From IMG/VR virus record IMGVR_UViG_3300028844_004984: a DNA stretch of 64,000 bases; one strand, 5' to 3'. The notes below the pieces were generated by a model, which worked only from the letters and a program-made list of their open reading frames with translations, was not told the origin of the DNA and searched no databases. Below are positions 18,620 through 36,815 of this stretch, piece by piece; positions within the stretch are counted from its first letter, which is position 1; each line of letters opens with the position of its first letter. The position numbers and the translations under genes are program-made. The DNA is from a virus.

Positions 18620-18624
18620 AAGTT

Positions 18625-20397: not shown

Positions 20398-20418
20398 TAA
20401 ATTAATCGGAGTAACAAA

Positions 20419-20658
20419 ATGAAGTATTTGTATTTTTCAGCACAATGGTGCGGCCCTTGTAAAAGCTTGGGGCCAATTATGAACGAAGTATCAACACATA
20501 TACCCGTTCAAAAAATAGATGTAGATAAAGACTACGAAATGGCACAAAAGTATGGTGTCAGAAATGTCCCAACGGTTGTGTTGGTCAATGGTGATTCAGA
20601 AATCACTCGTATTATAGGTTCACATTCAAAGCAAAGATATTTGGATGCTATCAAATAA
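20419..20658 (+). CDS. trxA: Thioredoxin
   Basis: WCGPC active site, adjacent to RNR. Confidence 0.95.
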   Translation: MKYLYFSAQWCGPCKSLGPIMNEVSTHIPVQKIDVDKDYEMAQKYGVRNVPTVVLVNGDSEITRIIGSHSKQRYLDAIK

Positions 20659-20671
20659 TTTTGTATATTAG
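20640..20671 (+). promoter_or_regulatory. sigmaA-type promoter for the MazG-HTH-Mom-Mom-HNH unit
   Basis: TTTG-N20-TATATTAG. Confidence 0.65.
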
Positions 20672-20676
20672 TAGTT

Positions 20677-21111
20677 ATGAAAGAAGTATTAAATAAACTA
20701 AAAGAGTTTCACTCAACGTATGGGCACCCAATCGAATTAGAGCCCACAGCTCAAACAGAAGAAATGGCTGAGTTGAGATACAAATTGGCAAAAGAAGAGT
20801 TAGATGAGTATTTGGAGGCAAATCAAAACGATGACCCTATTGAAATAGCAGATGCACTAGCTGACCAGTTGTATATTTTGTTGGGAACAATGTTGGTTCA
20901 CGGAATGCATGATGTTATCGAAGATGTGTTCAATGAAGTACATCGTTCCAATATGTCAAAGTTAGGTGAAGATGGTAACCCCATCTATCGTGATGACGGT
21001 AAGGTTATGAAAGGACCAAACTACACTAAACCAGAATTGGGTAGTATTATATCAAACGTTTGGAAAGAGAAACGAGCTCAGTTAAACATTCCGTTTAATG
21101 AGGAAGTTTAG
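20677..21111 (+). CDS. MazG-like / PRA-PH family nucleotide pyrophosphohydrolase
   Basis: 'EELDEYLEA..IADALADQLYI..G..EVHRSNMSKL..DGKVMKGPNY'. Confidence 0.85.
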   Translation: MKEVLNKLKEFHSTYGHPIELEPTAQTEEMAELRYKLAKEELDEYLEANQNDDPIEIADALADQLYILLGTMLVHGMHDVIEDVFNEVHRSNMSKLGEDGNPIYRDDGKVMKGPNYTKPELGSIISNVWKEKRAQLNIPFNEEV

Positions 21112-21112
21112 G

Positions 21113-21316
21113 ATGGCCCTAAGAGGAGAATCCCACCCGGCACATAAACTTACTGAGGAGCAAGTAAACACTATCAGAAAACTATGGAAGATTGGGCATA
21201 GGAATGTTAGGGTTTTAGCAAGAAATCATAGCGTATCACCTGCGAATATTCGTAGAATTGTTAGGAATGAAACTTGGACACATTTGTTAGTGGGTGAGTT
21301 TGATAAATACCAATAA
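21113..21316 (+). CDS. Small HTH DNA-binding protein (stand-alone HNH homing-endonuclease-type C-terminal domain)
   Basis: 'RGESHPAHKLTEEQV..IR...LAR.HSVS..NIRRIVRNETW'; no nuclease domain. Confidence 0.65.
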   Translation: MALRGESHPAHKLTEEQVNTIRKLWKIGHRNVRVLARNHSVSPANIRRIVRNETWTHLLVGEFDKYQ

Positions 21317-22074
21317 TGAAGGAAGAGGGAAAGAACTATTGTGATGTATCAAAATTATCAATCCGACCGATTTCTAAATCGGTAGCAAAGGGTATCATTA
21401 TCAACAATCATTATAGTGGGTTGTGGACAAAGGTATCATACGCATTGGGTTTGTTCGTTGAGGATGGTTCACATCAGTTTTTTGATTCTACAGATAAGTT
21501 GATTGGGGTTGCGTGTTATGGCGACCCCATTGGTAGATTGACTGGGCAATCCATATCGGAAACGTTAGATAGGACTGAGGTTTTAGAATTAGTTCGATTG
21601 TTCGTTTTTGATGGGTATGGTTCAAATATCGAAAGTTGGTTCTTATCACAAACATTTGATTGGCTGAGAACAAACGTTTCAAAGATAAAAGCACTCATAT
21701 CCTACTCAGACCCAAAAGAAGGGCACGCTGGGACAATCTATCAAGCAACAAATTGGATTTATCAAGGTAACAAACTTAGATTCAATGATAGTTGGAGTTT
21801 TAAGTTTGAAGAAGATGGAAGATGGATACATGGTAAAACCATATTTCCACAATACAGAACAAACGACCCTAAGAAGATACAAGAGCAGGTAAATAAACCT
21901 TTTTGGATTCGAAAAGAACCAAGAAAACATAGATACGTTTACATATTAGCTAGGGGCGGTGAGCGTAGGAAACTACTGAAGAATTTGAAACACCCAACAT
22001 TTCCATATCCAAAGGGAAGTGAAGATGTTGAGATGGAAGTACATAAATTACAACCAATTGAAAGAAACGGATAA
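21316..22074 (+). CDS. Mom-like GNAT DNA-modification protein, paralog 1
   Basis: 'NHYSG', 'LELVRLF...NIESWFLS', 'ISYSDPKEGHAGTIYQATNWIYQG', 'KHRYVY' match the Mu Mom family pattern. Confidence 0.8.
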   Translation: MKEEGKNYCDVSKLSIRPISKSVAKGIIINNHYSGLWTKVSYALGLFVEDGSHQFFDSTDKLIGVACYGDPIGRLTGQSISETLDRTEVLELVRLFVFDGYGSNIESWFLSQTFDWLRTNVSKIKALISYSDPKEGHAGTIYQATNWIYQGNKLRFNDSWSFKFEEDGRWIHGKTIFPQYRTNDPKKIQEQVNKPFWIRKEPRKHRYVYILARGGERRKLLKNLKHPTFPYPKGSEDVEMEVHKLQPIERNG

Positions 22075-22858
22075 AATATATTGTGATGTATCCAAAGTGC
22101 ATATAGCACCAATCGCCAAATCGATTGCTAAGGATATCATCGTAAAGAAACACTACACTCACGCGTGGACTGCGTGTAGATATGCATTGGGCATCTACTA
22201 TAAAACTGATGGTGATTCATTTCAGTTTGGAGATGATAAACTCATTGGTTGCGCAATATATGGATTCCCAGTTGGAGCAAGAGCAGCAACCTCTGTATGT
22301 GAGGGATTAACTAAGGATAACGCATTGGAGTTGACCAGATTGTACATCGATGATGGGTATGGTTCGAATATCGAATCATATGCGATGGGACAAACATTCA
22401 AATGGTTGAAAGAAAACGATAAGAACATTAAGTTGTTGATATCGTATGCCGATGCGGGACAGGAACACTTAGGTAAGATTTATCAGGCAACTAATTGGAT
22501 TTATCAAGGGTTATCAACCGACATCGCACTAATGCCAAACTATGGTATCTCACTAACGAAAGACCCGTACAATTGGATTCATAGTAGAACGGTATATTCA
22601 CTTTGGGGTAGTTCAAATTTAGACCACCTTAAAAACGAAATTGGTAAAGAGGGGCATAGTGAATTTTGGAGGAGAATGGAGCCACCAAAACACAGATACA
22701 TCCAACTATTACCACAAAACAAAAAAGAGAAGAAAGATTTGATTAAACGGTTGAAGCATGAAATCAAACCATATCCAAAGAATACGGATGATTTTAATAC
22801 AGAGGTTGTGAATCATAAAACAACTTATGTAGCTGAGAGTACCGAAAGTTTTTGGTGA
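22058..22858 (+). CDS. Mom-like GNAT DNA-modification protein, paralog 2
   Basis: 'HYTH', 'LELTRLY..NIESY', 'ISYADAGQEHLGKIYQATNWIYQG', 'KHRYI'. TTG start chosen by alignment with paralog 1 (MKETDKIYCDVSK vs MKEEGKNYCDVSK). Confidence 0.8.
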   Translation: MKETDKIYCDVSKVHIAPIAKSIAKDIIVKKHYTHAWTACRYALGIYYKTDGDSFQFGDDKLIGCAIYGFPVGARAATSVCEGLTKDNALELTRLYIDDGYGSNIESYAMGQTFKWLKENDKNIKLLISYADAGQEHLGKIYQATNWIYQGLSTDIALMPNYGISLTKDPYNWIHSRTVYSLWGSSNLDHLKNEIGKEGHSEFWRRMEPPKHRYIQLLPQNKKEKKDLIKRLKHEIKPYPKNTDDFNTEVVNHKTTYVAESTESFW

Positions 22859-23349
22859 TGAATAAAGTGTTAGTTCTAAATTCAGATTACACCCCATTGA
22901 ACGTAACAAATATGCGGCGTGGATTCATTCTTGTGATGAAAGGCAAGGCTGAAATTGTAAAAGAGGATGTGAACAAAATTGTAACTACGATTGGAGAGTT
23001 CGCTAAACCAATAATCATACGATTACTCAATTATATCGGATATCGGAATATGGGTATAAAGGTAAATCGTAAACGGATTATGAAGCGTGATGGTTTTGAG
23101 TGTGGATATTGTGGTTCGAAAAAGAATCTTACAATCGACCATATCATTCCTAAATCTCGTGGTGGTGGTAACACTTGGGATAATTTGGTGACTTGTTGTA
23201 GTAGATGTAACACAATCAAAGATGATAGGACTCCCAAAGAAGCAGATATGGTATTGAGAGTTAAACCACATCAACCATCTATATTTTCATCGGTAATTTC
23301 AGATGAAGTGGAAACTGAGTGGATTTTGTACAAAAAAAGTTTCCAATAA
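22858..23349 (+). CDS. HNH endonuclease (McrA-like)
   Basis: 'RDGFECGYCG...TIDHIIPKSRGG..WDNLVTCCSRCN..K'. Confidence 0.9.
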   Translation: MNKVLVLNSDYTPLNVTNMRRGFILVMKGKAEIVKEDVNKIVTTIGEFAKPIIIRLLNYIGYRNMGIKVNRKRIMKRDGFECGYCGSKKNLTIDHIIPKSRGGGNTWDNLVTCCSRCNTIKDDRTPKEADMVLRVKPHQPSIFSSVISDEVETEWILYKKSFQ

Positions 23350-23350
23350 A

Positions 23351-23382
23351 TTTGGTAGATTGAAAAACATTCCTTATATTAG
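23351..23382 (+). promoter_or_regulatory. sigmaA-type promoter for the GT-B gene
   Basis: TTTG-N20-TATATTAG. Confidence 0.7.
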
Positions 23383-23412
23383 TAGTATAAGAGATAAAAT
23401 GTATGTACCCGT

Positions 23413-24546
23413 ATGAACTTTTGGGATAGTGTAGATTATAACAATGCTAGAAAGGTGTTGGTGATACCTAATATCACTAACTCTTCTAATATTGAAAAAG
23501 ATTCGTTTATTGATGTGATACATAATCATATCAAAGGACTGGAGAAGTATGGTGAGTACTATTGGCATGTTTTAGTACCAACTGGAAATGTTACGAAGAA
23601 ACTAAACTTACCAAATGTGAAACAACATCAGATTGATATTCCAGGTGATATGATGAACCAACGTTCGTTCCCATCTGATAAGTTGATGAAACTTCTAAAG
23701 GATATCGATTATGATGTAATCTATTCACACCTGCCCGATTGGCCTCAAGTCGGTAGATACAAAAACGATATCAACACTAAAATAGTTGGGTATTGCCATT
23801 GGTGGGAAATGAAGTCCTGTAATGGTGTAGACCGTAGACCTGGTAAAGCAAAGTGGTTGTGGTTACCCATCGAACTATTAGGTATATCTCAGATGGAAAC
23901 CTGTTACTTAAATACACAAGACCAGAAGAATAGGGTGTTGGAAGAGGCGAGAGAAACATTCAATGAAGAGTTTGTTCAGAAGTTGGATGATATTCTCACT
24001 GTTTGGAACTTAGGATTGGAAGAATCCAAAATAGTATCCGAACCAAAATCAGAAAAGGAAAAGGTGATTGTATTCAACCACCGAGCAGCTGCATACAAGG
24101 GGTATCCTAAGTTTATGGAGTTGATGGAAGAATATCGTAAACAGCGACAGGATTTCAAAGTTTGGATTCCGCAATTAAATGGTAAACCACCATATGGGTG
24201 GGTAGATACTACCAAAGTACCAAAGCATGAGTACTATAAGAGATTGCAGGATTGTACCGTCGGTGTACAGATGAGGCAAACGAATTATGGTTGGAGCGTG
24301 AGTGGTACTGATTGTATGATGAATGGAACTCCAATGATTTGGCAGGAATCCGATTGTTATCACGAAATCGACCCGAATGGTATGTTCTTCAAATACAAAA
24401 AAGAATTCTTTGAGTATTTGGATAAGATGTTAGATGATGAACCATTCCGAAAAGAGCAAGAGTTAAAATCAGTAGAGAGGGCAAACGAGCTATCTAAGAA
24501 TGAGGGTAAAATGCTTGGAGAACTACACAAAAAGTTGTATATTTAA
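23413..24546 (+). CDS. GT-B fold glycosyltransferase, candidate DNA glycosyltransferase
   Basis: 'YDVIYSHLP', 'VFNHR..YKGY..F', 'GWSVSGTDCMMNGTPMI' (GT4-like signature). Lies immediately upstream of PolB. Confidence 0.7.
   Translation: MNFWDSVDYNNARKVLVIPNITNSSNIEKDSFIDVIHNHIKGLEKYGEYYWHVLVPTGNVTKKLNLPNVKQHQIDIPGDMMNQRSFPSDKLMKLLKDIDYDVIYSHLPDWPQVGRYKNDINTKIVGYCHWWEMKSCNGVDRRPGKAKWLWLPIELLGISQMETCYLNTQDQKNRVLEEARETFNEEFVQKLDDILTVWNLGLEESKIVSEPKSEKEKVIVFNHRAAAYKGYPKFMELMEEYRKQRQDFKVWIPQLNGKPPYGWVDTTKVPKHEYYKRLQDCTVGVQMRQTNYGWSVSGTDCMMNGTPMIWQESDCYHEIDPNGMFFKYKKEFFEYLDKMLDDEPFRKEQELKSVERANELSKNEGKMLGELHKKLYI
24514..24545 (+). promoter_or_regulatory. sigmaA-type promoter for PolB (inside the GT 3' end)
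   Basis: CTTG-N20-TATATTTA. ATG starts 5 nt after its last base. Confidence 0.6.
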
Positions 24547-24549
24547 GGT

Positions 24550-27066
24550 ATGTATCAAAACGCTTATTACGAAAAAGAGGGTGGTATCATCCATTGCTGG
24601 GATGATGAAAAAGGTTACTTTACCAAAAAGTATCGTAACTATGGTTATGTTAGAGATGGTAATGGTTCTTACGAATCAATCTATGGGGAACGGTTGAAGA
24701 AGATTAACTTTTGGAAAAACGAAGATAATCTAAAACTTTATGAATCGGATGTAAATGAAATGACCCGTTTCTTAATCGATGAATATGGTGATTCAGACGA
24801 GGTATCCACTGGTCATACTGTACTAACCTTTGATATTGAGGTAGAGATGAATAGTGGACTGCCCGATACAGATAAAGCAGAGAATACTATGACTTCTGTA
24901 GCATTCCACGATTCAGCAACAAACGATTATTATGCTTATGTACTAAGTGAGGGTGAAGAGATAAACAAAACTATCAAAGGGGCTAAAGTCCGTTCCTTTC
25001 GTAGTGAAGAAGATATGTTGATAGCATTTGTAAATGCTTGGGAAGAGATTTCACCGACTATCATTACGGGATGGAACATTGACTTCTTTGATGTTACATA
25101 TTTGTACAATCGATTAAAGCGGGTACTTGGGACATCAACAGCAAATAGGCTATCCCCAATCAGAAAAGTACATTGGAACAAATATCGTAAACGTTACATC
25201 ATCGCAGGTGTATCTGCATTGGATTACATCGCATTATTTAAGAACTTTACATATACGGAATATCCCAACTATCGCTTGGATACTATCGCTAAATTAGAAT
25301 TAGGTAGAGGGAAGATTGAGTACGAAGGAAACTTAGACCAATTATTCAGAGATGATATTGAGAAGTTTGTTGAATATAACTTAGTTGATGTTGAGTTGGT
25401 GGTAGATATGGATAAGAAACTACAATTCATCGATTTGGCTAGAGCAATATGCCATGCGGGTCATGTGTTCTATGAAGATTTCTTATTCTCATCGAAATGG
25501 TTAGAGGGAGCAATTCTCACATTCCTTAGACGGAGTGGTAGGGTAGCTCCGAACAAACCACAGCGGATGTTTAAAAATGCTGATGGTTCTGATGGGGAAG
25601 GTAAGTTTATAGGTGCATATGTAAAACAACCAAAGCCCGGCCTTTACAAATGGGTATACGATTTGGATTTAACATCACTATACCCATCAATCATTATGAG
25701 TATCAATATCTCACCTGAAACTAAGATTGGTAAGGTGAAGAACTACTCCGCTGAAGAATCTATGAAGGGAAATATTGAATCATATTCTATTATAGATAAT
25801 AATGGTAGTGAATCAAAGCCCGTATCAAAAGAACACTTTACCAACTTTATTGAACAACAAAAGCTATCAATAGCATCAAATGGTGTGTTGTATTCACAGA
25901 ATAGGGTTGGTATCATACCTGAGATTCTTAACGTGTGGTTTGATAAGAGAGTAGAGTACAAAGACCTGATGAAAAAATATGGTAAAGAGGGTAATGATGA
26001 ACTTTATAAGTTCTACTCTCAGCGCCAGTTGGTACAAAAAATTATGTTGAATTCCCTTTACGGAGTATTGGGATTACCATCATTCAGATTCTACGATGTT
26101 GATAACGCAGAAGCAGTAACACTTACAGGTCAGACTGTAATTAAAACAACTGAGATGATTGCCAATCAATACTATAGTAAGAACATTGGTGAAACAAAAG
26201 ATTACAACATCTATGTTGATACTGATTCTGTATTCTATGAAGCAGCACCATTGGTAAAGGCTAGGAATCCTAATATTGATGTAACATCTGATAAAGAAAT
26301 GATTCCAGCTATTCTATCAGTTGCTAAAGAGGTTGAGGACCATATCAATAAAGTATATGATTCAATGGCATTGAAAATGTTCAATATTAATTCACATAGA
26401 TTTGATATTAAGCAAGAAACTATCGCTAAGGGTGGGTTTTGGGTATCTAAGAAAAGATACGCTCAATGGATTATCAACGATAACACTGTAGATTGTGATA
26501 AGTTGGATGTGAAAGGATTGGATGTGAAACGTTCATCATTCCCAACTTACTTCAAAGAAGTGATGAGTACTGTGTTGATGGATATCCTAAAGGATGAGAA
26601 CAAAGATAAAATTGATGAGTATATTCTTAGGAAGAAAGATGAGATGAAAACTACCAACTTTATCGATATAGCAAAGAATTCAGCAGTTAAAGGTATGAGT
26701 AAGTATACATTTAAGAATCAAGCACTGGGTGAGTTTATGAAAGGAACACCAGCGCATGTTAAAGCAGCACTTACTTACAATCAACTATTGAAATATTATA
26801 ATGCAGCATTTAAATTTGAACCAATGAAAGATGGTGATAAGATTAAGTGGGTGTATTTGAAACCTAATCCATTAGGATTAGACTCCGTTGGGTTGACGGG
26901 ATATAACGACCCGAAAGAGATTTTGGATTTGGTAGAACAGCATATAGATTATGAGCTAATTTGGACAAAAGAATTAGAGAATAAGTTAGATGATTTCTAC
27001 AAAGCAATGGGGTGGGAAAAGCCAAATCCGAATCTAGCAAAAGCATCACAATTTTTTGGATTTTAA
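24550..27066 (+). CDS. DNA polymerase family B (gp43-like)
   Basis: Exonuclease 'FDIEV', 'GWNIDFFD', 'YNLVD'; polymerase 'DLTSLYPS', 'KIMLNSLYG', 'YVDTDS', 'KKRY'; C-terminal 'SQFFGF'. Confidence 0.97.
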   Translation: MYQNAYYEKEGGIIHCWDDEKGYFTKKYRNYGYVRDGNGSYESIYGERLKKINFWKNEDNLKLYESDVNEMTRFLIDEYGDSDEVSTGHTVLTFDIEVEMNSGLPDTDKAENTMTSVAFHDSATNDYYAYVLSEGEEINKTIKGAKVRSFRSEEDMLIAFVNAWEEISPTIITGWNIDFFDVTYLYNRLKRVLGTSTANRLSPIRKVHWNKYRKRYIIAGVSALDYIALFKNFTYTEYPNYRLDTIAKLELGRGKIEYEGNLDQLFRDDIEKFVEYNLVDVELVVDMDKKLQFIDLARAICHAGHVFYEDFLFSSKWLEGAILTFLRRSGRVAPNKPQRMFKNADGSDGEGKFIGAYVKQPKPGLYKWVYDLDLTSLYPSIIMSINISPETKIGKVKNYSAEESMKGNIESYSIIDNNGSESKPVSKEHFTNFIEQQKLSIASNGVLYSQNRVGIIPEILNVWFDKRVEYKDLMKKYGKEGNDELYKFYSQRQLVQKIMLNSLYGVLGLPSFRFYDVDNAEAVTLTGQTVIKTTEMIANQYYSKNIGETKDYNIYVDTDSVFYEAAPLVKARNPNIDVTSDKEMIPAILSVAKEVEDHINKVYDSMALKMFNINSHRFDIKQETIAKGGFWVSKKRYAQWIINDNTVDCDKLDVKGLDVKRSSFPTYFKEVMSTVLMDILKDENKDKIDEYILRKKDEMKTTNFIDIAKNSAVKGMSKYTFKNQALGEFMKGTPAHVKAALTYNQLLKYYNAAFKFEPMKDGDKIKWVYLKPNPLGLDSVGLTGYNDPKEILDLVEQHIDYELIWTKELENKLDDFYKAMGWEKPNPNLAKASQFFGF

Positions 27067-27098
27067 TTTGGATATTCCAAAATAAATTCGTATATTTA
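27067..27098 (+). promoter_or_regulatory. sigmaA-type promoter with overlapping inverted repeat TTTGGA-TAT-TCCAAA
   Basis: TTTG-N20-TATATTTA. Confidence 0.7.
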
Positions 27099-27129
27099 AG
27101 ACCAATAAACAATAAATAATTAATTTCAT

Positions 27130-27825
27130 ATGAAAAAAGCAAGTATTGAAAGTTTCATTAACCGATACAATCTCGGTGGTGAAGTAGAATCGGTAAAGAT
27201 TACATCTACTGATTCGGAGATGAAGGTAAGTTTTATCTCAGATGATAAAACTTTGTTAGGAGAGGTAACCTCTAAAGAGGGTGATTTTCCCAATGGTGAG
27301 TTTGGTGTTTACACAACTTCTCAGTTAAAAGCACTTTTGGGTGTATTAGAATCTAATGTGGAGGTTGACTCTACTGAATCTTACATCAAGTTTTCAGATA
27401 AGGGTACATCGGTTAATTATATGCTGGCAGACCTTTCTGTGATTCCAGTTGTTCCTGATTTGAAGCAAGTACCACCTTTCAACTCAGAAGTTACTTTGAA
27501 CGATGAGTTTACATCTAAGTTTATCAAATCAAAAGGAGCGCTGAGTGAATCAGATACATTTACATTTAGTTGTATTGGTGATAAGGGTGAGGTTGTTTTA
27601 GGATATTCCACAATTAACACTAACCGAATCTCAATCTCAGTAGAATGTAAGTGTGATGGGGATGTACAACCAATCTCATTTTCAGCTAAGTATCTGAAAG
27701 AAATCCTAAATGCTAACAGAGCCTCTAAATCTGCTACATTAAAAATTTCATCGCAGGGGCTTTCTTACATTGAATTTGAAACAGATACCATCACATCAAA
27801 ATACTATTTGGTAGAGATTAAATAA
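27130..27825 (+). CDS. Sliding clamp (gp45/PCNA-like)
   Basis: 231 aa, beta-rich, 'FGVY..SQL...L', C-terminal 'KYYLVE'. Lies between PolB and the clamp loader. Confidence 0.8.
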   Translation: MKKASIESFINRYNLGGEVESVKITSTDSEMKVSFISDDKTLLGEVTSKEGDFPNGEFGVYTTSQLKALLGVLESNVEVDSTESYIKFSDKGTSVNYMLADLSVIPVVPDLKQVPPFNSEVTLNDEFTSKFIKSKGALSESDTFTFSCIGDKGEVVLGYSTINTNRISISVECKCDGDVQPISFSAKYLKEILNANRASKSATLKISSQGLSYIEFETDTITSKYYLVEIK

Positions 27826-29039
27826 TGAGTATGAACTTTTGGGATACAGAACCAGCTAAACCAATCTTTGACTTTGAAACTCAAAAGAGGGAGTTAATCG
27901 AAAATATGGATTATCTATCTTCGATGACAGTTGAAGAACAAACACTTTACAAAAAGTGGGTTGAGTTACAAGAGCCCTCTATGATTAGGGATAAATCGCA
28001 CATTGCGGAACTATACCCAACACAGTGGGCTCCGGCTGATATTAACAATTTGGAACAAACCATTTCGGAGATTGAAGCGTTAGAACCTTATGTTGAGATT
28101 GTAGAAGATGCTAAGGATTCTACTAAATGGGCATATCTCAGAAGGATGATTCATACAATGGGGTTTACCGCCAATCCTGGTCGAAACGTTAAGATTAATG
28201 TTAAAGATAGGGTTACTGGAAAGCTTTTAGGGCAGATATCACTAGCATCTGATGTAACCTCTATGAAGGTTAGAGATGACTATATTGGGTGGAGTAAAGA
28301 TAATAAGTTCGTAGATAAAAAACTCAACCATACTACAATAGCATCTACAATTGTGTGTACTCAGCCACTTGGATTTAACTTCTTAGGTGGTAAGTTAGTT
28401 GCTATGATGACCACTGTGCCTGAAGTGAGGGAGTTTTGGAAAGATAAATATGGCCAGACCCTTATAGCAGTTGGGACTACATCTCTGTATGGAATTCACT
28501 CTCAGTACAATGGTATTCCTCACTTCAAAACATTAGGTGAATCGGCCGGAAAGATTTCAATAAAACCAGATGATAAGTACTACGAACCTTGGCATCAATG
28601 GATTAAAGAAAACAGAGCAGATTGGTACGAAACTGCAATTACGAATGAAAGAATCCGTAATGGTAAAAGTATGGGTGTAGCAAGTGGGCCTGTAAGTGGT
28701 ATCAAACAAAAGATTCTTGGGCAGATATTCAAAGAATGTGGTATCAAACAATCAGATTATCATCATGGGTTTAAAAGAGGTGTATATCTCGCTATGATGT
28801 ATGAGAATGGGCCGGAGTTCCTTAAAGGTGAAATTGGTGAAGATGAGCTAAAGATGAAGCAGAAGTTCGAAGAGGGTGTGGATTACATCAGTAGATGGTG
28901 GAAGAAAAAGGCAATAAAACGATACACCAAACTACACTCTGAAGGTAGATTGAAGCCAGAGCATTTGTTCTATATCGATGCGATTGGTATGAGTTGGGAA
29001 GATATGAAAAGTAAGTATTTGAAAGAAGTTGGTAGATAA
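27825..29039 (+). CDS. DruA/DUF4338-like protein
   Basis: 'PGRN...DRVTGKLLG.ISLASD...RDDYIGW', 'FNFLGGKLVAM', 'TTSLYG..SQYN', 'LGESAG', 'HGFKRGVY' match the Druantia DruA family pattern. Confidence 0.75.
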   Translation: MSMNFWDTEPAKPIFDFETQKRELIENMDYLSSMTVEEQTLYKKWVELQEPSMIRDKSHIAELYPTQWAPADINNLEQTISEIEALEPYVEIVEDAKDSTKWAYLRRMIHTMGFTANPGRNVKINVKDRVTGKLLGQISLASDVTSMKVRDDYIGWSKDNKFVDKKLNHTTIASTIVCTQPLGFNFLGGKLVAMMTTVPEVREFWKDKYGQTLIAVGTTSLYGIHSQYNGIPHFKTLGESAGKISIKPDDKYYEPWHQWIKENRADWYETAITNERIRNGKSMGVASGPVSGIKQKILGQIFKECGIKQSDYHHGFKRGVYLAMMYENGPEFLKGEIGEDELKMKQKFEEGVDYISRWWKKKAIKRYTKLHSEGRLKPEHLFYIDAIGMSWEDMKSKYLKEVGR

Positions 29040-29971
29040 TGAATAACACAGAAAACACACTTTGGGTTGAGAAGTACAGACCCGATACATTGGAAGGGTA
29101 TGTTGGAAACGAACATATCCTTGAGAAAGTAAAGATTTACATTGAGAATGAGGATGTACCTCACTTGCTACTCTATGGTGTGGCGGGTACTGGTAAGACT
29201 ACCCTCGCTAAAATCATTACCAATCAGATTGATTGTGATGTGATGTACATCAACGCTTCGGATGAAAACAACGTAGATACAGTTAGGGATAAGATTAGAG
29301 GATTCGCATCATCGATGGGATTCCGTAAGTGGAAAGTGATTATTTTGGATGAGAGCGATTACCTAACTCCGAACGCACAGGCGGCACTTCGTAATCTAAT
29401 GGAAACGTTCTCCAAAACAACACGATTCATTTTGACGTGTAACTATGTTGAAAAAATCATCGACCCAATTCAGAGTAGATGCCAAACGTTTGGTATTACA
29501 CCACCATCTAAGAAAGAGGTGGCGCTGCGTTTGAAAGAGATTTTGGATTCTGAGAATGTATCATATGAGATGCAGGATTTAGCTATTTTGGTAAATAGTG
29601 GATATCCTGATATTCGTAGAGTTCTGAACGCAGGACAACGGCAGGTTATAAAGGGTGAATTGAAGATTGATAAAACATCAACGATTCAAGCGAATTATAT
29701 GGATGAGGTATTGAATGTACTTAAATCTGATGGTAATGTAAAAGAGGTGTTCCTAAAGAGTAGGCAGATTATCGCAGATTCAAAAGTTAAGGACTTCACA
29801 CCATTCTACAGATTTTTGTACGATAATGTAGATGATTTCGCAGCTGGAAAAGTGGGTAACACAATAATCAAAATTGCAGATGCTCAATACAAAGATGCAT
29901 CAGTAGTGGATAAAGAAATCAACATCGTAGCGATGTTATTGGAAATTTTAATTGATATCAAAGGAAAATAA
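29039..29971 (+). CDS. Clamp loader AAA+ subunit (gp44/RFC-like)
   Basis: 'LWVEKYRP', 'GVAGTGKTT', 'INASDE', 'ILDESD', 'IQSRC'. Confidence 0.95.
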   Translation: MNNTENTLWVEKYRPDTLEGYVGNEHILEKVKIYIENEDVPHLLLYGVAGTGKTTLAKIITNQIDCDVMYINASDENNVDTVRDKIRGFASSMGFRKWKVIILDESDYLTPNAQAALRNLMETFSKTTRFILTCNYVEKIIDPIQSRCQTFGITPPSKKEVALRLKEILDSENVSYEMQDLAILVNSGYPDIRRVLNAGQRQVIKGELKIDKTSTIQANYMDEVLNVLKSDGNVKEVFLKSRQIIADSKVKDFTPFYRFLYDNVDDFAAGKVGNTIIKIADAQYKDASVVDKEINIVAMLLEILIDIKGK

Positions 29972-29973
29972 TT

Positions 29974-30243
29974 ATGGCAAAAGGAAAGGGAAAATCAAAA
30001 ATAGTTGGAATGGGACAACCAACACAACAAGCACCACAAATGCAGTTAGACCCAACAAAGTTACCAACGGTACATTGTGAGAATTGTGATTCTATTTTTT
30101 GGGAAGAAGTGACAATGTTCAAAGAAGTTCCAGCGGTTCAATCACCGAATGGGCAGAAATCAATGTTACCAATTCCTGTAGTTAGATGTGCAGAGTGTGG
30201 GCATGTATCGGAAAAGTTTTTACCTAAAGAGTTATTACCTTAA
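29974..30243 (+). CDS. Zn-ribbon protein
   Basis: CENC...CAECGH. Confidence 0.7.
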   Translation: MAKGKGKSKIVGMGQPTQQAPQMQLDPTKLPTVHCENCDSIFWEEVTMFKEVPAVQSPNGQKSMLPIPVVRCAECGHVSEKFLPKELLP

Positions 30244-30698
30244 TGGCAAAAAAGAAAAGTGATAACACTGTAAAGGCTAAGAGTATCTTCCAACATCTTA
30301 GTGGTATAAAGGAGAAAAAAGATTCTTGGGAATCTCTATCTGAGATGGATAAGAAATCATTTACTCCATTTATCATAAATCGTTGGTTAAGTATGAACTT
30401 GGACTTACTACCTATCATAAATGTACTACAGAAGTACACAATCGGCTTGTTATCCGCCAGAGATGTATACAAAGTGTATTTGGATTTTCTACCAAAGCAA
30501 AAAACATTTGATAAGTACATCAAAGGTAAGAAAGATGGTAAGTACAACAAAGAGTTACTACAACACCTATCAACTTGGTATGGTGTATCACATAGAGAAG
30601 TAATTGATTATTTGGATATACTACCAAAGGATGAGGTGATTTCGATTCTAATGAAGTATGGTATGACCGATAAGGAAGCAAAAAAGTTATTGAAATGA
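30243..30698 (+). CDS. Clamp loader small subunit (gp62-like)
   Basis: 'FTPFIINRWLSM' and 'WYGVSHREVIDYL' gp62-like pattern, downstream of gp44. Confidence 0.8.
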   Translation: MAKKKSDNTVKAKSIFQHLSGIKEKKDSWESLSEMDKKSFTPFIINRWLSMNLDLLPIINVLQKYTIGLLSARDVYKVYLDFLPKQKTFDKYIKGKKDGKYNKELLQHLSTWYGVSHREVIDYLDILPKDEVISILMKYGMTDKEAKKLLK

Positions 30699-31105
30699 GC
30701 GAAGTATTAAGAGAATCAAAAACCAAAGTAGTTCACAGAGGTGAGCGAGTGGTTACAACGAATAAAGAAGAAACTGCAGTACAATACTGCGAACGAATGT
30801 ATCCTGATACCACAAATGAGTTCAAAGTTATTTTGGATGAGATGTATGATACATTCTGTAAGAAGCAACGTAACTATGGGCCAGGTAATATTTCGGTGGG
30901 AACTGATTTGAAAACCGATGATGATAAGAAGTTATCATTAACTGGGCTGTGGTTCAGAATCAACGATAAGGTTCAGCGATTGAAGCAATTGGTTGTATTA
31001 GGTCAACCAGATGAGGTTGGAGAATCAGTACAAGATACATATCAGGATTTGAGTGTATATGGTGTGATTGCTCAGATTGTTCAACGTGGAAAGTGGGCTA
31101 AATGA
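30695..31105 (+). CDS. Nucleotide-modification-associated domain 1 (DUF1599/Nmad1, MazG-like)
   Basis: 'KKQRNYG', 'RINDKVQRL', 'ESVQDTYQDLSVYGVI'. Confidence 0.75.
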   Translation: MSEVLRESKTKVVHRGERVVTTNKEETAVQYCERMYPDTTNEFKVILDEMYDTFCKKQRNYGPGNISVGTDLKTDDDKKLSLTGLWFRINDKVQRLKQLVVLGQPDEVGESVQDTYQDLSVYGVIAQIVQRGKWAK

Positions 31106-31539
31106 ACTGGAATGAATATTTCAGAGGTATAGCACACCAAGTAAAACTAAAATCAAAGGATGAACGTACTCAGATAGGTGCTGTTATCGTTGGAACTGAT
31201 AACGAAATCGTATCAACTGGGTACAATTCATTTCCCAGAGGTATTGTTGATTCTAAATCAGAAAGACAAGAAAGGCCTGAAAAATACTATTGGTTTGAGC
31301 ACGCAGAACGAAACGCAATCTACAACGCAGCTAGAATTGGAGTATCCACGAAAGGTTGTAGAATGTATCTAACTTGTGGTATTCCGTGTTCTGATTGTGC
31401 TAGGGGTATTATAAACGCAGGTATCATCGAAATCTATTGTGAGCGAGAGGGTGGTGCAACGGGCAGTAAGTGGGATGAATCAGCTATCCGTTCAATGAAG
31501 ATGTTCAATGAAACTGGAATAGAAATAAAATTCTATTAA
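31102..31539 (+). CDS. dCMP deaminase
   Basis: 'SKD..QIGAVIV', 'TGYNS', 'HAERNAI', 'PCSDC'. Confidence 0.92.
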   Translation: MNWNEYFRGIAHQVKLKSKDERTQIGAVIVGTDNEIVSTGYNSFPRGIVDSKSERQERPEKYYWFEHAERNAIYNAARIGVSTKGCRMYLTCGIPCSDCARGIINAGIIEIYCEREGGATGSKWDESAIRSMKMFNETGIEIKFY

Positions 31540-31561
31540 TTCAAAAAAATTAATCAAAATA

Positions 31562-31593
31562 GTTGGATATTCCAAATAATTTTCTTATATTAG
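31562..31593 (+). promoter_or_regulatory. sigmaA-type promoter with TTGGATATTCCAA inverted repeat
   Basis: GTTG-N20-TATATTAG. GTG starts 5 nt after its last base. Confidence 0.65.
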
Positions 31594-31597
31594 TGTA

Positions 31598-32545
31598 GTG
31601 AAAGATAGTAAGATAAATAACGTATTTTCTCTTGGTATTAGAGAACCCAGTGATGGAGATGTTGGGGTATCATACTCCCAATACACAATGTATGCTAATT
31701 GCCCACATCAATGGAAGCTGAACTATATGGATGGTAACAGAACGTTTGACCCATCCATACATTTGGTGTTTGGTACAGCAATGCATGAAACACTACAAGA
31801 GTGGTTGGATATACTGTACAACAAATCACCCAAAGAAGCATCTGAGATAGATTTGGGTAAGATGTTGTATGAGTGTATGATTACCGAATATACAAAGATG
31901 CGTAAACAGACTGGTGTTGAATTTAGTTCACCATCTGAAATGGAGGAGTTCTTAGAAGATGGAATTGAGATTCTGAACTTTGTTACAAAGAATCGCTTGG
32001 ATTACTTCAATACACGTCATATGAAACTTCTAGCCATTGAGTTACCAATCTACGCTAAAGCTATGGAATCTCATAATGTATATATGAGAGGGTTCTTAGA
32101 TTTGGTGTTTGAGGATACATATGAGAATAAGATTCAGATTTGGGATATCAAAACATCAACAATGGGTTGGAATAAGTGGCAAAAAGCAGATAAAACCAAA
32201 ACAGCTCAGTTGGTTCTGTACAAAAAATTCCTATCCGAACAATTTGGTTACCCAATTGATAACATCAGTACCAAATACTTCATCGTAAAGAGAAAGTTGC
32301 ACGAAGGTATGATGTTTGCTCAAAAGAGGGTGCAAGAATTTGTACCTTCTAGTGGTAAACCCACACTAAATAAGATAACAAAAAGTTTTGAAGATTTCAT
32401 CAGAAATTCATTCAACGAAGATGGTAGCTACCGAAAAGAATCTGAGTTCCCTGCTATGGCGGGTAAGAACAATAAGAATTGTAAGTGGTGTCCGTTCAAA
32501 AATGATTTTGAGAAATGTCCGAAAGAGAATAGACATAAAGTATGA
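31598..32545 (+). CDS. PD-(D/E)xK exonuclease, Cas4/AddB-like
   Basis: 'SYSQ...CP..W', 'GTAMHE', 'GFLDLV', 'WDIKTS', 'QLVLY', 'CKWCPF...C'. Confidence 0.85.
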   Translation: MKDSKINNVFSLGIREPSDGDVGVSYSQYTMYANCPHQWKLNYMDGNRTFDPSIHLVFGTAMHETLQEWLDILYNKSPKEASEIDLGKMLYECMITEYTKMRKQTGVEFSSPSEMEEFLEDGIEILNFVTKNRLDYFNTRHMKLLAIELPIYAKAMESHNVYMRGFLDLVFEDTYENKIQIWDIKTSTMGWNKWQKADKTKTAQLVLYKKFLSEQFGYPIDNISTKYFIVKRKLHEGMMFAQKRVQEFVPSSGKPTLNKITKSFEDFIRNSFNEDGSYRKESEFPAMAGKNNKNCKWCPFKNDFEKCPKENRHKV

Positions 32546-33084
32546 AGAAGATTTTATTGATTGTACCATTTTTGGTTGCAGCTGGGATTTCCAATAATCG
32601 GTTCAATTTAGAACCGATTGTGGTATTACAACCAAAAGAAATAAAAGGTGATACACCTAACTCAGCTAAGTTAAAAACTATCACAAATTATGTTGATTGG
32701 ACACCATTAATCCGAGCTATGATTCAAGTCGAAAGTCGAGGTAATGATTCGGCATATAACAAACGTGAGGAAGCTGTGGGATGTTTACAAATCAGACCAA
32801 TTATGCTAAAAGAATGTAATCGTATTCTAACGCTGATTGGTGTTGATAAACAATACACATTAGATGATAGGTGGAATCGAACTAAATCAATTGAAATATT
32901 TTATGTAGTAAACAATCATCATCACAAAAATGGAACATATGAAGAAATCGCGAGGGCCTGGAATGGTGGTCCGAACTGGGCTAAAAAGGGCGGTACAAAA
33001 AGATATTGGAAAAAAGTACAAAAGCAACTCAAAAAACAATTTAAAGAAAATGAACGTAGCGGTGATAGGTTCTCCGAAGTATGA
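32542..33084 (+). CDS. Lysozyme-like/lytic transglycosylase with N-terminal signal or anchor
   Basis: 'AMIQVESRG', 'GCLQI', 'ARAWNGGP', 'YWKKV'; hydrophobic N-terminus. Confidence 0.75.
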   Translation: MKKILLIVPFLVAAGISNNRFNLEPIVVLQPKEIKGDTPNSAKLKTITNYVDWTPLIRAMIQVESRGNDSAYNKREEAVGCLQIRPIMLKECNRILTLIGVDKQYTLDDRWNRTKSIEIFYVVNNHHHKNGTYEEIARAWNGGPNWAKKGGTKRYWKKVQKQLKKQFKENERSGDRFSEV

Positions 33085-33445
33085 GAATGTTAGAAAGTTG
33101 CGAGAATTTCTGTTCACAATCAAAGAAAAGCTAGGAACTGAAATTAACATTATAAGTAGGGGTAATAAAGATGGTTGTGAAAAATATGTTCGTAAGTATA
33201 CATTAGAGTTTGGGTTAAGATACACCGAATACAACGCAGCACATACGAACAGAAATCTATACAGTGGTATGAGTGATGAGTACTATGATAAACCATTTCA
33301 TCCAACACAAACATTACATCAATATGATTGTATAGTAAAACACGCTGATAAATTATTCTACTTTGGTGGTATAAAAGCATCTGAGCAAAGACACTTCGAA
33401 AAATTGCTAAAACGGTATGGAAAGCGTGTTACATATATGGTTTAA
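33050..33445 (+). CDS. SLOG/YspA-like Rossmannoid protein
   Basis: 'MNVAVIGS..Y.N', 'IISRG..DGCE...Y'. Confidence 0.5.
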   Translation: MNVAVIGSPKYENVRKLREFLFTIKEKLGTEINIISRGNKDGCEKYVRKYTLEFGLRYTEYNAAHTNRNLYSGMSDEYYDKPFHPTQTLHQYDCIVKHADKLFYFGGIKASEQRHFEKLLKRYGKRVTYMV

Positions 33446-33487
33446 TTAAATCGATTTAGATACTTATTTAAAAGAAATAAAAGAGTT

Positions 33488-36725: not shown

Positions 36726-36783
36726 CTGATTATCAACACGATAGCTATGATAGTGAGCACAAAAGTAAAAAGTACGGATGATA

Positions 36784-36815
36784 TTTGTTTAAATGAACAT
36801 TTTTTCGTATATTAG
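36784..36815 (+). promoter_or_regulatory. sigmaA-type promoter heading the glycan island
   Basis: TTTG-N20-TATATTAG. Confidence 0.7.

What the first reader, a model, noticed from the sequence alone, without database searches (positions are those of the whole stretch)
20677..31539. Candidate replisome-coupled DNA hypermodification system: 2x Mom-like GNAT, GT-B, DruA-like, HNH, MazG/Nmad1 and dCMP deaminase interleaved with PolB, clamp and loader
Seen: four putative DNA-acting modifiers sit within the core replication cluster, together with three nucleotide-pool enzymes and an HNH nuclease. Established: Mu Mom modifies adenine through a GNAT fold, T-even GT-B enzymes glucosylate hmC, and Nmad1/MazG-like proteins accompany base-modification loci. 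Inference: the phage installs a compound acyl and/or sugar base modification. No hydroxymethylase, TET/JBP, PurZ or 7-deazaguanine genes are in this window, so the acceptor base and chemistry do not match a pathway I can name.
Basis: partly seen in the sequence, partly recalled or inferred. Interest (0 to 1): 0.88.

Follow-up and report, generated by a model that had tools for sequence, protein, structure and literature searches.

The report
Mom-type DNA modifiers inside phage replisome operon
A widespread uncultured marine phage keeps two Mom-type adenine-modifying enzymes, a third Mom-like enzyme of the DruA family and a sugar transferase among its DNA polymerase and sliding-clamp genes. Three of the four carry a short aromatic end-peptide like the polymerase's clamp-binding tail, which suggests DNA is modified as it is copied.

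Summary
Window 20677-31539 encodes, all on the + strand: MazG, a small HTH protein, Mom1, Mom2, HNH, a GT-B glycosyltransferase, PolB, clamp, a DruA/DUF4338 protein, clamp loader, an Nmad1-like protein and dCMP deaminase.

The conserved core is sHTH-Mom1-Mom2-[variable slot]-GT-B-PolB-clamp-DruA-clamp loader. It is kept in every long related locus among 256 viral contigs, even where PolB is only about 55% identical. DruA-like and the Mom genes change 2-3 times more slowly than PolB at non-synonymous sites, while synonymous sites are equally saturated.

- **Mom1 and Mom2:** both keep the Mu Mom residues R111, S124, D149, Y159 and W181.
- **DruA-like:** its fold is a GNAT, closest to Mu Mom (Z 10.0). 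Relatives are fused to ParB-N or UDG domains. In distant phages and T4-like cyanophages the gene again lies among the clamp and clamp-loader genes.
- **End-peptides:** Mom2 (C-terminal [SN]FW), GT-B and DruA-like (N-terminal xFW[DE]) have invariant aromatic ends resembling the PolB tail ([QK]FF[GS]F).

HNH, MazG and dCMP deaminase are variable. The Nmad1-like gene is a backbone gene. None of these four is part of the module.

Not shown: the GT-B acceptor, the chemistry and clamp binding.

The scan reached the same reading on a related genome (e1-5697811).

The parts
20677..21111 (+). MazG-like NTP pyrophosphohydrolase. It flanks the module and is a variable accessory gene, not part of the core.
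   Evidence: Pfam PRA-PH 59.9 bits; PHROG 671. Detected in only some relatives: L008, L031, L034.
21098..21316 (+). Small 72-aa HTH protein. Its stop codon overlaps the Mom1 start. It is conserved upstream of Mom1.
   Evidence: Weak HTH_38 match and PHROG 517. Conserved at 57-91% identity in the related loci that cover the slot.
21316..22074 (+). Mom1, a Mom-family GNAT. It has no terminal aromatic motif and is missing from some relatives.
   Evidence: PF25680 148.5 bits. Full-length match to Mu Mom 8bv8, E 1.1e-10. Equivalents of H58/Y59, R111, S124, D149, Y159 and W181 are kept. Forms its own clade, support 100/99.
22058..22858 (+). Mom2, a Mom-family GNAT with the invariant C-terminal end-peptide ..[SN]FW. 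The ORF opens at 22019; the likely start is TTG at 22058.
   Evidence: PF25680 153.5 bits. Start inferred from homologues. The C-terminal FW is invariant in all Mom2 ORFs listed from the related loci, while the tail before it varies. Phages with a single Mom keep this type.
22852..23349 (+). HNH homing-type endonuclease sitting in the variable slot. Not part of the module.
   Evidence: Pfam HNH_5 and HNH. Present only in L007 and L008. Other relatives carry unrelated genes in this slot.
23413..24546 (+). GT4-like GT-B glycosyltransferase (type I allele) with the N-terminal end-peptide M-x-F-W-[DE]. Its acceptor is unknown.
   Evidence: AF2 model pLDDT 82.2; residues 1-6 have pLDDT below 50. 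Fold matches: sucrose-phosphate synthase Z 27.3, BshA 26.4, HY126 DNA arabinosyltransferase 21.6, T4 AGT 20.4. 118 of 120 close homologue clusters start M(x)FW[DE]. Three allele types at 28-36% identity occupy the same slot.
24550..27066 (+). Family B DNA polymerase with the C-terminal tail ..SQFFGF.
   Evidence: Pfam DNA_pol_B and exonuclease domains. The tail [QK]FF[GS]F is conserved in all relatives. Mel-JY01 PolB ends ..SKFFNFK.
27130..27825 (+). Sliding clamp (gp45/PCNA-like).
   Evidence: Weak PCNA_C match; PHROG 223 processivity factor. Clamp homologues lie directly upstream of DruA-like genes in distant loci, hhalign probability 99.9-100%.
27825..29039 (+). DruA/DUF4338-family GNAT with a Mom-like fold and the N-terminal end-peptide M(SM)NFWDTEP. 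It overlaps the clamp stop and the clamp-loader start.
   Evidence: PF14236 78.8 bits; PADLOC DruA1 E 6.8e-17. AF2 pLDDT 94.1. Best structural match is Mu Mom 8bv8_B, Z 10.0, rmsd 4.1, 173 residues, against 8.7 or less for other GNATs. Relatives are fused to ParB_N, UDG or GIY-YIG. dN is 0.14-0.17 against 0.37-0.39 for PolB.
29039..29971 (+). Clamp loader large (AAA+) subunit.
   Evidence: Pfam AAA, DNA_pol3_delta2 and Gp44_lid.
29974..30243 (+). Small zinc-ribbon protein between the two clamp-loader subunit genes.
   Evidence: Weak zinc-ribbon matches. Conserved in close relatives. Mel-JY01 has a small ORF of similar size at the same slot.
30243..30698 (+). Clamp loader small subunit (gp62-like).
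   Evidence: Phage_clamp_A 26.9 bits, cut-off 27.
30695..31105 (+). Nmad1/DUF1599-like protein. It is a backbone gene and is not specific to the Mom/DruA set.
   Evidence: PF07659 24.3 bits, cut-off 25; PHROG 1485. 54% identical to the Mel-JY01 gene at the same slot. Mel-JY01 lacks Mom and gave no DruA-like hit.
31102..31539 (+). dCMP deaminase, a variable nucleotide-pool enzyme.
   Evidence: Pfam dCMP_cyt_deam_1 70.3 bits. Present only in L007 and L008 among relatives.

Best explanation
The region is a conserved DNA-modification module built into the T4-like replication operons of an abundant clade of uncultured marine phages. These genomes run to about 190-250 kb.

**Proposed mechanism**
- The core enzymes are two Mom-family paralogs. 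By homology to Mu Mom, they transfer an aminoacyl group from a charged tRNA to N6 of adenine in double-stranded DNA after replication.
- A third enzyme, of the DruA/DUF4338 family, has a Mom-like GNAT fold and probably also acts on DNA.
- A rapidly diversifying GT4-type glycosyltransferase sits at a fixed slot next to polB. It may add a sugar to DNA or to another target.
- Mom2, the GT-B and the DruA-like protein each carry a short aromatic peptide at a flexible terminus, resembling the polymerase's C-terminal tail. The proposal is that this peptide docks them on the sliding clamp left on new DNA, so phage DNA is marked as it is made.

**Status of each step**
- Shown: family membership, folds, conserved residues, conserved gene order, strong purifying selection, and motif conservation.
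- Inferred: DNA as the substrate of DruA-like and of the GT-B, the donor molecules, and clamp binding.
For: **Family and fold**
- Both Mom paralogs score about 150 bits on PF25680.
- Mom1 aligns over its full length to Mu Mom 8bv8.
- Both keep the equivalents of Mu H58/Y59, R111, S124, D149, Y159 and W181. These residues are reported as needed for activity (PMC13219725).
- The DruA-like model (pLDDT 94) matches Mu Mom best among 48,161 chains: Z 10.0, with the next GNAT at 8.7.
- An independent paper calls the cyanophage homologue structurally Mom-like (PMC12801897).
- Aravind's group classes DUF4338 as a GNAT (PMC10853773).
- Relatives of the DruA-like protein are fused to ParB_N, UDG or GIY-YIG/NUMOD3 domains.

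**Linkage**
- The order sHTH-Mom1-Mom2-[slot]-GT-B-PolB-clamp-DruA-clamp loader holds in all long loci of 256 related contigs, down to 54% PolB identity.
- A DruA homologue at 50% identity again follows PolB and clamp.
- In the locus of a homologue at 44% identity, DruA follows the clamp and a Mom gene lies between the two clamp-loader subunit genes.
- In four T4-like cyanophages the DUF4338 gene lies between gp44 and gp62.

**Selection**
- Against divergent relatives, synonymous sites are saturated for all genes (pS about 0.7-0.78).
- dN is 0.14-0.17 for DruA and 0.14-0.33 for the Mom genes, against 0.37-0.39 for PolB and 0.36-0.43 for the clamp loader.
- This points to purifying selection, not recent transfer.

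**End-peptides**
- FW is invariant at the DruA-like N-terminus in every DruA-like ORF listed from the 79 related loci, and at the Mom2 C-terminus in every Mom2 ORF listed. PolB ends [QK]FF[GS]F in all relatives.
- 118 of 120 GT-B type I clusters start M(x)FW[DE].
- Type III GT-B alleles start M[SN]KFFTDP.
- More distant DruA-like proteins start ..SFFDI..KFFDIEP..QFFDLP..KFFDN and ..DFFDITEP. That is 5 of 69 against a background of 1.1% per 14-residue window.
- The motif-bearing termini are low-confidence, flexible segments in both models.
- In this genome 4 of 11 cluster genes carry such an end, against 5 of 116 elsewhere (Fisher p 0.003; the motif was defined post hoc).
Against: - No modified base has been measured.
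- Profile-profile comparison finds no sequence similarity between DruA-like and Mom. The structural margin over ordinary GNATs is only about 1.3 Z.
- Mu residue R151, essential in Mu, is K in Mom1 and G in Mom2 by alignment.
- The GT-B resembles generic GT4 enzymes more than known DNA glycosyltransferases.
- A large glycan-synthesis island with at least eight more glycosyltransferase-like genes lies 2 kb downstream.
- No hydroxymethylase or hydroxylase route to a glycosylatable pyrimidine was found. The complete relative G001 has only a canonical-looking ThyA with PCH and PFN motifs.
- Type II GT-B alleles and Mom1 lack the terminal motif.
- Cyanophage DUF4338 proteins lack it too.
- Mom genes in other phage groups are not near replisome genes.
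Confidence: 0.55

Rival explanations
1. Only the Mom paralogs modify DNA. The GT-B and the DruA-like protein are unrelated accessory genes that settled at permissive sites in the replication operon. On this view the GT-B belongs to the phage's glycan or virion-glycosylation machinery, and the DruA-like GNAT acylates a protein or small molecule. Candidate targets are a replisome or host factor. The shared aromatic ends are then coincidental or serve another partner.
For: - The GT-B is closest to generic GT4 enzymes. Among viral models it matches actinophage glycosyltransferases.
- A glycan island with NeuB, a CMP-sugar synthetase, UDP-glucose dehydrogenase, an epimerase and many glycosyltransferases lies at 33488-52198.
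- The slot between Mom2 and GT-B is a hotspot for unrelated cargo.
- There is no sequence similarity between DruA-like and Mom.
- Most GNATs act on proteins or small molecules (one search hit list).
Against: - The GT-B keeps its position next to polB in all relatives, although its sequence is replaced by alleles of 28-36% identity.
- DruA-like is the most conserved protein of the region.
- It recurs inside clamp and clamp-loader clusters in four separate lineages.
- It is fused to DNA-linked domains (ParB_N, UDG) elsewhere.
- The terminal motifs are invariant next to variable tails.
Confidence: 0.25
2. The DruA-like protein is a counter-defence mimic. On this view the phage copy of a Druantia type I component interferes with the host's Druantia system rather than modifying DNA. 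The Mom genes act independently as ordinary anti-restriction enzymes.
For: - The protein matches Pfam DruA and PADLOC DruA1.
- No other Druantia genes are nearby.
- Phages are known to carry homologues of defence components (general knowledge).
Against: - The family has over 1000 representative clusters, many on phage contigs.
- The fold is an intact GNAT with nearly invariant glycine-rich and polar columns typical of an active enzyme.
- The gene is more conserved than PolB and sits inside the clamp operon across distant lineages. That fits a core replication-linked function better than a host-specific decoy.
Confidence: 0.08
3. The Mom-like enzymes act on RNA, tRNA or nucleotides rather than on DNA. 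Examples would be modifying tRNA or replication primers. Their position in the replication operon would then only reflect early or middle expression timing.
For: - Some GNATs use tRNA as a substrate, for example TacT and TmcA (discussed in PMC13219725).
- The cluster also holds nucleotide-pool enzymes.
Against: - Mu Mom and tested metagenomic homologues modify dsDNA (PMC13219725).
- Both paralogs keep the region aligned to Mom's HTH-like insertion, which is needed for activity and modelled on DNA. This includes the W181 equivalent.
Confidence: 0.05

Closest known systems
Phage Mu Mom (PF25680; PDB 8bv8)
   Same: - Mom1 and Mom2 are clear family members, with full-length alignment and equivalents of R111, S124, D149, Y159 and W181.
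- Mu Mom transfers glycine from Gly-tRNA(Gly) to N6-adenine in dsDNA after replication. The product rearranges to N6-carbamoylmethyl-adenine and blocks restriction (PMC13219725).
   Different: - There are two diverged paralogs (43% identity) in tandem, instead of one gene with the Com regulator.
- They sit in an early/middle-type replication operon rather than a late operon.
- Mom2 carries a C-terminal FW end-peptide.
- Mu R151 is not conserved.
- The donor amino acid and the target sequence are unknown.
DruA (DUF4338, PF14236) of type I Druantia
   Same: The 404-aa protein matches Pfam DruA and PADLOC DruA1 across the whole domain.
   Different: - There is no DruB-E; the gene lies between clamp and clamp loader.
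- DruA's biochemistry is unknown. Here the fold is shown to be a GNAT closest to Mom.
- By analogy with the methyltransferase DruM of type II Druantia, DruA may be a DNA-marking enzyme. This is inference.
T4-like cyanophage gene cluster 'T4-GC 1216' (DUF4338 between gp44 and gp62)
   Same: It is homologous, at about 30% identity over residues 118-379, and also embedded in the clamp-loader operon. In S-SCSM2R it is annotated as 'methylcarbamoylase mom' on structural grounds (PMC12801897).
   Different: The slot differs (between the loader subunits rather than between clamp and loader). There is no N-terminal FW peptide. S-T4 has no Mom-family gene.
Phage DNA glycosyltransferases (T4 alpha-glucosyltransferase 1y6f; HY126/RB69 5-hydroxycytosine arabinosyltransferase 9iqz)
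   Same: The GT-B fold is shared, Z 20.4 and 21.6. Allelic diversity at a fixed locus recalls the T-even agt/bgt genes.
   Different: Generic GT4 enzymes score higher (Z up to 27.3). No thymidylate-synthase-type hydroxymethylase or hydroxylase was found to make an acceptor base.
Clamp-binding peptides (RB69/T4 gp43 C-terminal tail; N-terminal PIP box of human DNA ligase I; PCNA-binding DNMT1)
   Same: These are short aromatic motifs at flexible termini, and the polymerase of the same phage carries a similar tail. DNMT1-PCNA is a precedent for coupling DNA modification to the clamp. This comparison rests on general knowledge.
   Different: Binding here is untested. The motif (xFW[DE] or [SN]FW-COOH) is shorter than a canonical PIP box and was recognised by inspection.

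Membership tests
Mom (PF25680) | Profile match above the curated cut-off over the full domain | tested here: met
   Mom1 scores 148.5 bits and Mom2 153.5 bits against a cut-off of 27.1, covering profile positions 2-202 of 202. Both match PHROG 1384.
Mom (PF25680) | Catalytic residues of Mu Mom: R111 and S124 (essential), plus D149, H58/Y59, Y159 and W181 | tested here: met
   Mapped through the alignment to 8bv8 (chain numbering = Mu numbering minus 9). The equivalents are R94, S107, D132, H32/Y33, Y142 and W170. They are invariant or nearly invariant in both paralog clades.
Mom (PF25680) | Mu R151, essential in Mu | tested here: inconclusive
   The aligned position is K134 in Mom1 and G in Mom2. 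The loop alignment is uncertain.
Mom (PF25680) | Aminoacyl-tRNA-dependent modification of N6-adenine in dsDNA | not testable with these tools
   This requires biochemistry or nucleoside mass spectrometry.
DruA / DUF4338 (PF14236) | Profile match above the cut-off | tested here: met
   78.8 bits against a cut-off of 27. PADLOC DruA1 E 6.8e-17 over residues 85-365.
Type I Druantia system (DruABCDE) | DruA adjacent to DruB-D and the DruE helicase | tested here: not met
   The neighbours are the sliding clamp and the clamp loader. No DruE-like helicase appears among the annotated genes of the window.
GT4-type GT-B glycosyltransferase | Two-Rossmann GT-B fold with GT4-like relatives | tested here: met
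   Pfam matches are below the cut-offs. The fold match is strong: 6kih Z 27.3 over 340 residues and 6n1x Z 26.4.
Phage DNA glycosyltransferase | Closest relatives are DNA glycosyltransferases, and the phage makes a hydroxylated or hydroxymethylated acceptor base | tested here: inconclusive
   9iqz scores Z 21.6 and 1y6f Z 20.4, both below generic GT4 enzymes. No TS-type hydroxymethylase was found in the 59%-complete record. The complete relative has a canonical-looking ThyA only.
Nmad1 / DUF1599 (PF07659) | Profile match above the cut-off | tested here: inconclusive
   24.3 bits against a cut-off of 25, covering only residues 90-128. PHROG 1485, of unknown function, matches at E 6e-15.
Clamp-binding end-peptide | Short conserved aromatic motif at a flexible terminus, similar to the cognate polymerase tail | tested here: met
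   Motif conservation is shown. The termini have low pLDDT.
Clamp-binding end-peptide | Physical binding to the sliding clamp | not testable with these tools
   This needs a pull-down, ITC or a co-structure.

The most novel reading that the evidence does not exclude
The most novel reading is a clamp-tethered, replication-coupled, multi-enzyme adenine hypermodification pathway.
- Mom2, with Mom1 as partner or second specificity, and the DruA-like GNAT would ride on the sliding clamp through FW end-peptides and install aminoacyl-derived groups on new DNA.
- The fast-evolving GT-B would then glycosylate one of these adducts.
- This would be the first sugar-bearing adenine hypermodification.
- It would also assign a biochemical role, DNA marking, to DruA of type I Druantia.
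Probability: 0.15. Interest if true: 0.9.

Novelty: new variant of a known kind. Interest (0 to 1): 0.7.

Why it matters
- **Range of Mom chemistry.** Mom-type modification was solved mechanistically only in 2026 and is known from single genes. Here three Mom-fold enzymes are fixed inside the replisome operons of a phage clade that is common in marine metagenomes. They are under stronger constraint than the polymerase.
- **New mode of action.** If the end-peptides do bind the clamp, this would be the first phage example of DNA hypermodification enzymes recruited by the sliding clamp. The known parallel is eukaryotic DNMT1-PCNA.
- **Druantia.** The work gives a testable function for the DruA/DUF4338 family. 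Its role in Druantia defence is unknown.
- **Marine viromics.** It suggests marine phage DNA may carry unrecognised adenine adducts that affect sequencing and restriction-based methods.

Tried and rejected
- **DruA-like versus Mom by sequence.** Profile-profile comparison of the DruA-like alignment with the Mom alignment gave no signal, probability 2%.
- **Foldseek against the PDB.** It gave only weak p300/GNAT matches for DruA-like. The exhaustive aligner was needed to rank Mom first.
- **Complex prediction.** Clamp trimer plus the first 45 residues of DruA-like scored 0.07, below the mark. This is no verdict, and counts neither for nor against binding.
- **Other modification pathways.** Searches of the own record and the complete relative G001 found no ThyX, TGT/DpdA or Dam. 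ThyA was found in G001 only and looks canonical. PurZ and TET/JBP were not searched.
- **tRNA genes.** None in the 113-kb record.
- **Rfam.** No match in 18000-34000.
- **Promoter and terminator scans.** Sigma-70 promoter and terminator counts were at chance level.
- **Another protein with an N-terminal MQFW.** The protein at window 38299-39138 has no homologue in G001 or G002, so it was treated as chance.
- **Mom genes in other phages.** In a Staphylococcus Twort-like phage, a halovirus and Polaribacter phage P12002L they are not near replisome genes. The linkage is therefore specific to this lineage and is not a general Mom property.
- **Literature.** A search for Mom-like plus sliding clamp plus phage found nothing.

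Full report
**Source and setting**

The window is bases 27152-91151 of a 113-kb IMG/VR viral record. CheckV estimates it at 59% complete, which implies a genome of roughly 190 kb. All real genes lie on the + strand. The nearest isolate is Microcystis phage Mel-JY01, with PolB 48% identical. Earlier first-reader notes on T9SS cargo suggest a Bacteroidota host; I did not test this.

The finding lies inside a T4-like replication module. The gene order is gp32-like SSB, RecA/UvsX, 5'-3' exonuclease, DnaB-type helicase, RNR beta and alpha, and thioredoxin. The stretch in question follows, then a PD-(D/E)XK nuclease.

**Observation**

- Strong Pfam matches: MazG/PRA-PH, Mom twice (148.5 and 153.5 bits), HNH, PolB, DruA (78.8 bits), the AAA clamp loader and dCMP deaminase.
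- The GT-B is below the Pfam cut-offs. An AlphaFold model (pLDDT 82) is a GT4-type GT-B fold, with sucrose-phosphate synthase at Z 27.3 and BshA at 26.4.
- The clamp is weak in Pfam but matches PHROG 223.
- Nmad1/DUF1599 scores 24.3 bits against a cut-off of 25.
- Mom2 most likely starts at TTG 22058, judging from its homologues.

**Which genes belong together**

A search of viral contigs with the DruA-like protein found 256 relatives; 80 loci were fetched. In every locus long enough to judge, the order is sHTH-Mom1-Mom2-[variable slot]-GT-B-PolB-clamp-DruA-clamp loader large-(Zn ribbon)-clamp loader small. This holds even where PolB is only 54-58% identical.

Several genes fall outside this core:
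- HNH and dCMP deaminase occur only in the two closest relatives, and MazG in a few.
- The Nmad1-like gene is 54% identical to a gene at the same slot in Mel-JY01. Mel-JY01 has no Mom gene and gave no DruA-like hit. Its module runs thioredoxin-hyp-hyp-PolB-clamp-loader with no glycosyltransferase annotated there.
- HNH is therefore a mobile endonuclease, the pool enzymes are ordinary variable cargo, and Nmad1-like is a backbone gene.

In relatives, the slot between Mom2 and GT-B holds unrelated cargo. This includes 505-682-aa proteins of no known family, a GHKL ATPase and a PLOD-type glycosyltransferase.

**Mom paralogs**

- Mom1 aligns over its full length with the solved Mu Mom structure 8bv8, E 1.1e-10.
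- Silva et al. (Nat Commun 2026, PMC13219725) showed that Mu Mom transfers glycine from Gly-tRNA(Gly) to N6-adenine in dsDNA after replication. The adduct then rearranges to N6-carbamoylmethyl-adenine.
- In that work R111, S124 and R151 are essential. H58, Y59, D149, Y159, W181 and an HTH-like insertion are important.
- Mapped through the alignment, both paralogs keep H-Y, R94, S107, D132, Y142 and W170. R151 corresponds to K in Mom1 and G in Mom2.
- The paralogs are 43% identical and form two well-supported clades. Phages with one Mom keep the Mom2 type.

**DruA-like protein**

- It matches Pfam DruA and PADLOC DruA1, but no other Druantia gene is present.
- The AlphaFold model is confident: pLDDT 94.1, pTM 0.90.
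- In an exhaustive structural comparison the best match is Mu Mom (8bv8_B: Z 10.0, rmsd 4.1, 173 residues), ahead of ordinary GNATs at Z 8.7 or less. The margin is small.
- Profile-profile sequence comparison with Mom finds nothing.
- Two papers agree independently. Aravind's group classes DUF4338 as a GNAT (PMC10853773). The S-SCSM2R cyanophage paper calls its homologue structurally Mom-like (PMC12801897).
- The family is large, with 1039 representative clusters at E below 1e-3. It includes fusions to ParB_N, UDG, DUF3102 and GIY-YIG/NUMOD3 domains. These fusions point to DNA as the target.

**Linkage to the clamp beyond this clade**

- A homologue at 50% identity again follows PolB and a clamp. 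The clamp was confirmed by hhalign at 100% probability.
- In the locus of a homologue at 44% identity, DruA follows the clamp (99.9% probability). A Mom gene lies between the clamp-loader large and small subunit genes.
- In four T4-like cyanophages (S-T4, S-SSM7, S-SM2, S-SCSM2R) the DUF4338 gene lies between gp44 and gp62.
- In pelagiphages it is elsewhere: next to MazG in Mosig, and upstream of a peptidase gene in both Mosig and HTVC008M.
- Mom genes in a Staphylococcus phage, a halovirus and a Polaribacter phage are not near replisome genes. The linkage is lineage-specific, not a general property of Mom.

**Selection**

| Gene | dN against divergent relatives |
|---|---|
| DruA-like | 0.14-0.17 |
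| Mom1 / Mom2 | 0.14-0.33 |
| PolB | 0.37-0.39 |
| Clamp loader large subunit | 0.36-0.43 |

Synonymous sites are saturated for all genes in these comparisons, with pS about 0.7-0.78. The modifiers are therefore under stronger purifying selection than the replisome proteins, rather than recently transferred.

Close relatives are mosaic. Against L007 the Mom1-Mom2-GT-B block has dS about 0.5, while PolB and DruA have about 1.1. Against L016 the pattern is reversed.

The GT-B slot holds three allele types at 28-36% identity. This pattern is typical of genes in an arms race.

**End-peptides**

This lead came from earlier first-reader notes.
- PolB ends [QK]FF[GS]F in all relatives. From general knowledge, this resembles the RB69 gp43 clamp-binding tail.
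- Mom2 ends [SN]FW in every Mom2 ORF listed from the related loci, after an otherwise variable tail.
- DruA-like starts M[SND]FW[DE]TEP in all the loci listed.
- 118 of 120 GT-B type I clusters start M(x)FW[DE].
- Type III GT-B alleles start M[SN]KFFTDP.
- More distant DruA-like proteins start ..SFFDI..KFFDIEP..QFFDLP..KFFDN and ..DFFDITEP. That is 5 of 69 against a background of 1.1% per window.
- The termini are low-confidence, flexible segments in both models.
- In this genome 4 of 11 cluster genes carry such an end, against 5 of 116 elsewhere (p 0.003; the motif was defined post hoc).
- Mom1, type II GT-B alleles and the cyanophage homologues lack the motif.

Binding to the clamp is an inference.

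**GT-B acceptor**

The fold is compatible with DNA glycosyltransferases. The HY126 5-hydroxycytosine arabinosyltransferase 9iqz scores Z 21.6 and T4 AGT Z 20.4 (PMC13326640). It is not diagnostic, for three reasons:
- No TS-type hydroxymethylase or hydroxylase, ThyX, TGT or Dam was found.
- The complete relative G001 has a ThyA with the PCH and PFN motifs of ordinary dUMP-using enzymes.
- A roughly 16-18 kb glycan island lies just downstream. It encodes two GT4 and three GT2 enzymes, TOD1- and PLOD-type glycosyltransferases, UDP-glucose dehydrogenase, NeuB, a CMP-sugar synthetase, an epimerase and FkbM methyltransferases. A non-DNA acceptor is therefore a real alternative.

**Verdict**

- The best reading (confidence about 0.55) is a conserved, replication-operon-embedded DNA-modification module. 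Its core is Mom-type adenine modification plus a Mom-fold DruA-family enzyme, probably recruited through clamp-type end-peptides.
- The role of the GT-B is open.
- The same conclusion was reached by this scan on a related genome (e1-5697811).
- No paper linking Mom-like enzymes to the sliding clamp was found.

Noticed in passing
window 33488-52198: A large glycan-synthesis island. It encodes two GT4 and three GT2 enzymes, TOD1/MUCI70-like and PLOD-type glycosyltransferases, UDP-glucose dehydrogenase, NeuB (nonulosonic acid synthase), a CMP-sugar cytidylyltransferase, an NAD epimerase/dehydratase, a 2-hydroxyacid dehydrogenase and FkbM-type and other methyltransferases. An IMPDH/GMP reductase gene (49896-50978) lies inside the span. 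The target (virion, host surface or DNA) is unknown.
   Followed up: partly
window 27069-27081 and 31564-31576: The exact 13-mer TGGATATTCCAAA, followed 16 nt later by TATATT, occurs upstream of the clamp gene and upstream of the PD-(D/E)XK gene. It thus brackets the clamp-DruA-clamp loader-Nmad1-dCMP deaminase block. It may be a phage promoter or operator. Only these two exact copies occur in the window.
   Followed up: partly
L044:2584-5573, L018:3876-5393, L038:1641-3689, L085:2732-5596, L008:3229-4749: In relatives, the slot between Mom2 and GT-B holds unrelated cargo: 505-682-aa proteins with no Pfam family, a GHKL (HATPase_c) protein and PLOD-type glycosyltransferases. This window has only an HNH gene there. 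The slot looks like a diversity hotspot.
   Followed up: partly
L013:5368-6711, L031:5354-6697, L078:3559-4893: GT-B type III alleles (444-447 aa) carry an extra C-terminal extension of roughly 50-70 residues that types I and II lack. Its function is unknown.
   Followed up: no
proteins P0131, P0138, P0147, P0143, P0274: DruA/DUF4338 domains occur fused to ParB_N, a uracil-DNA-glycosylase-superfamily domain, DUF3102 or GIY-YIG plus NUMOD3. This may bear on what DruA does in type I Druantia.
   Followed up: partly
L097:1-17212: A distant phage contig carries, around its clamp-DruA-clamp loader-ClpP-Mom-clamp loader small block, an NAD salvage set (NAMPT, a CTP_transf_like adenylyltransferase, NUDIX) and a DNA ligase.
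   Followed up: no
window 8428-9690: A 420-aa ORF upstream of the replication genes has only a weak sub-threshold match to DNA polymerase family A (20.5 bits). The neighbouring 737-aa ORF has no family.
   Followed up: no
window 38299-39138: A 279-aa protein of no known family inside the glycan island starts MQFW, like the modifiers' end-peptide. It has no homologue in the two related genomes searched, so this is probably chance.
   Followed up: yes
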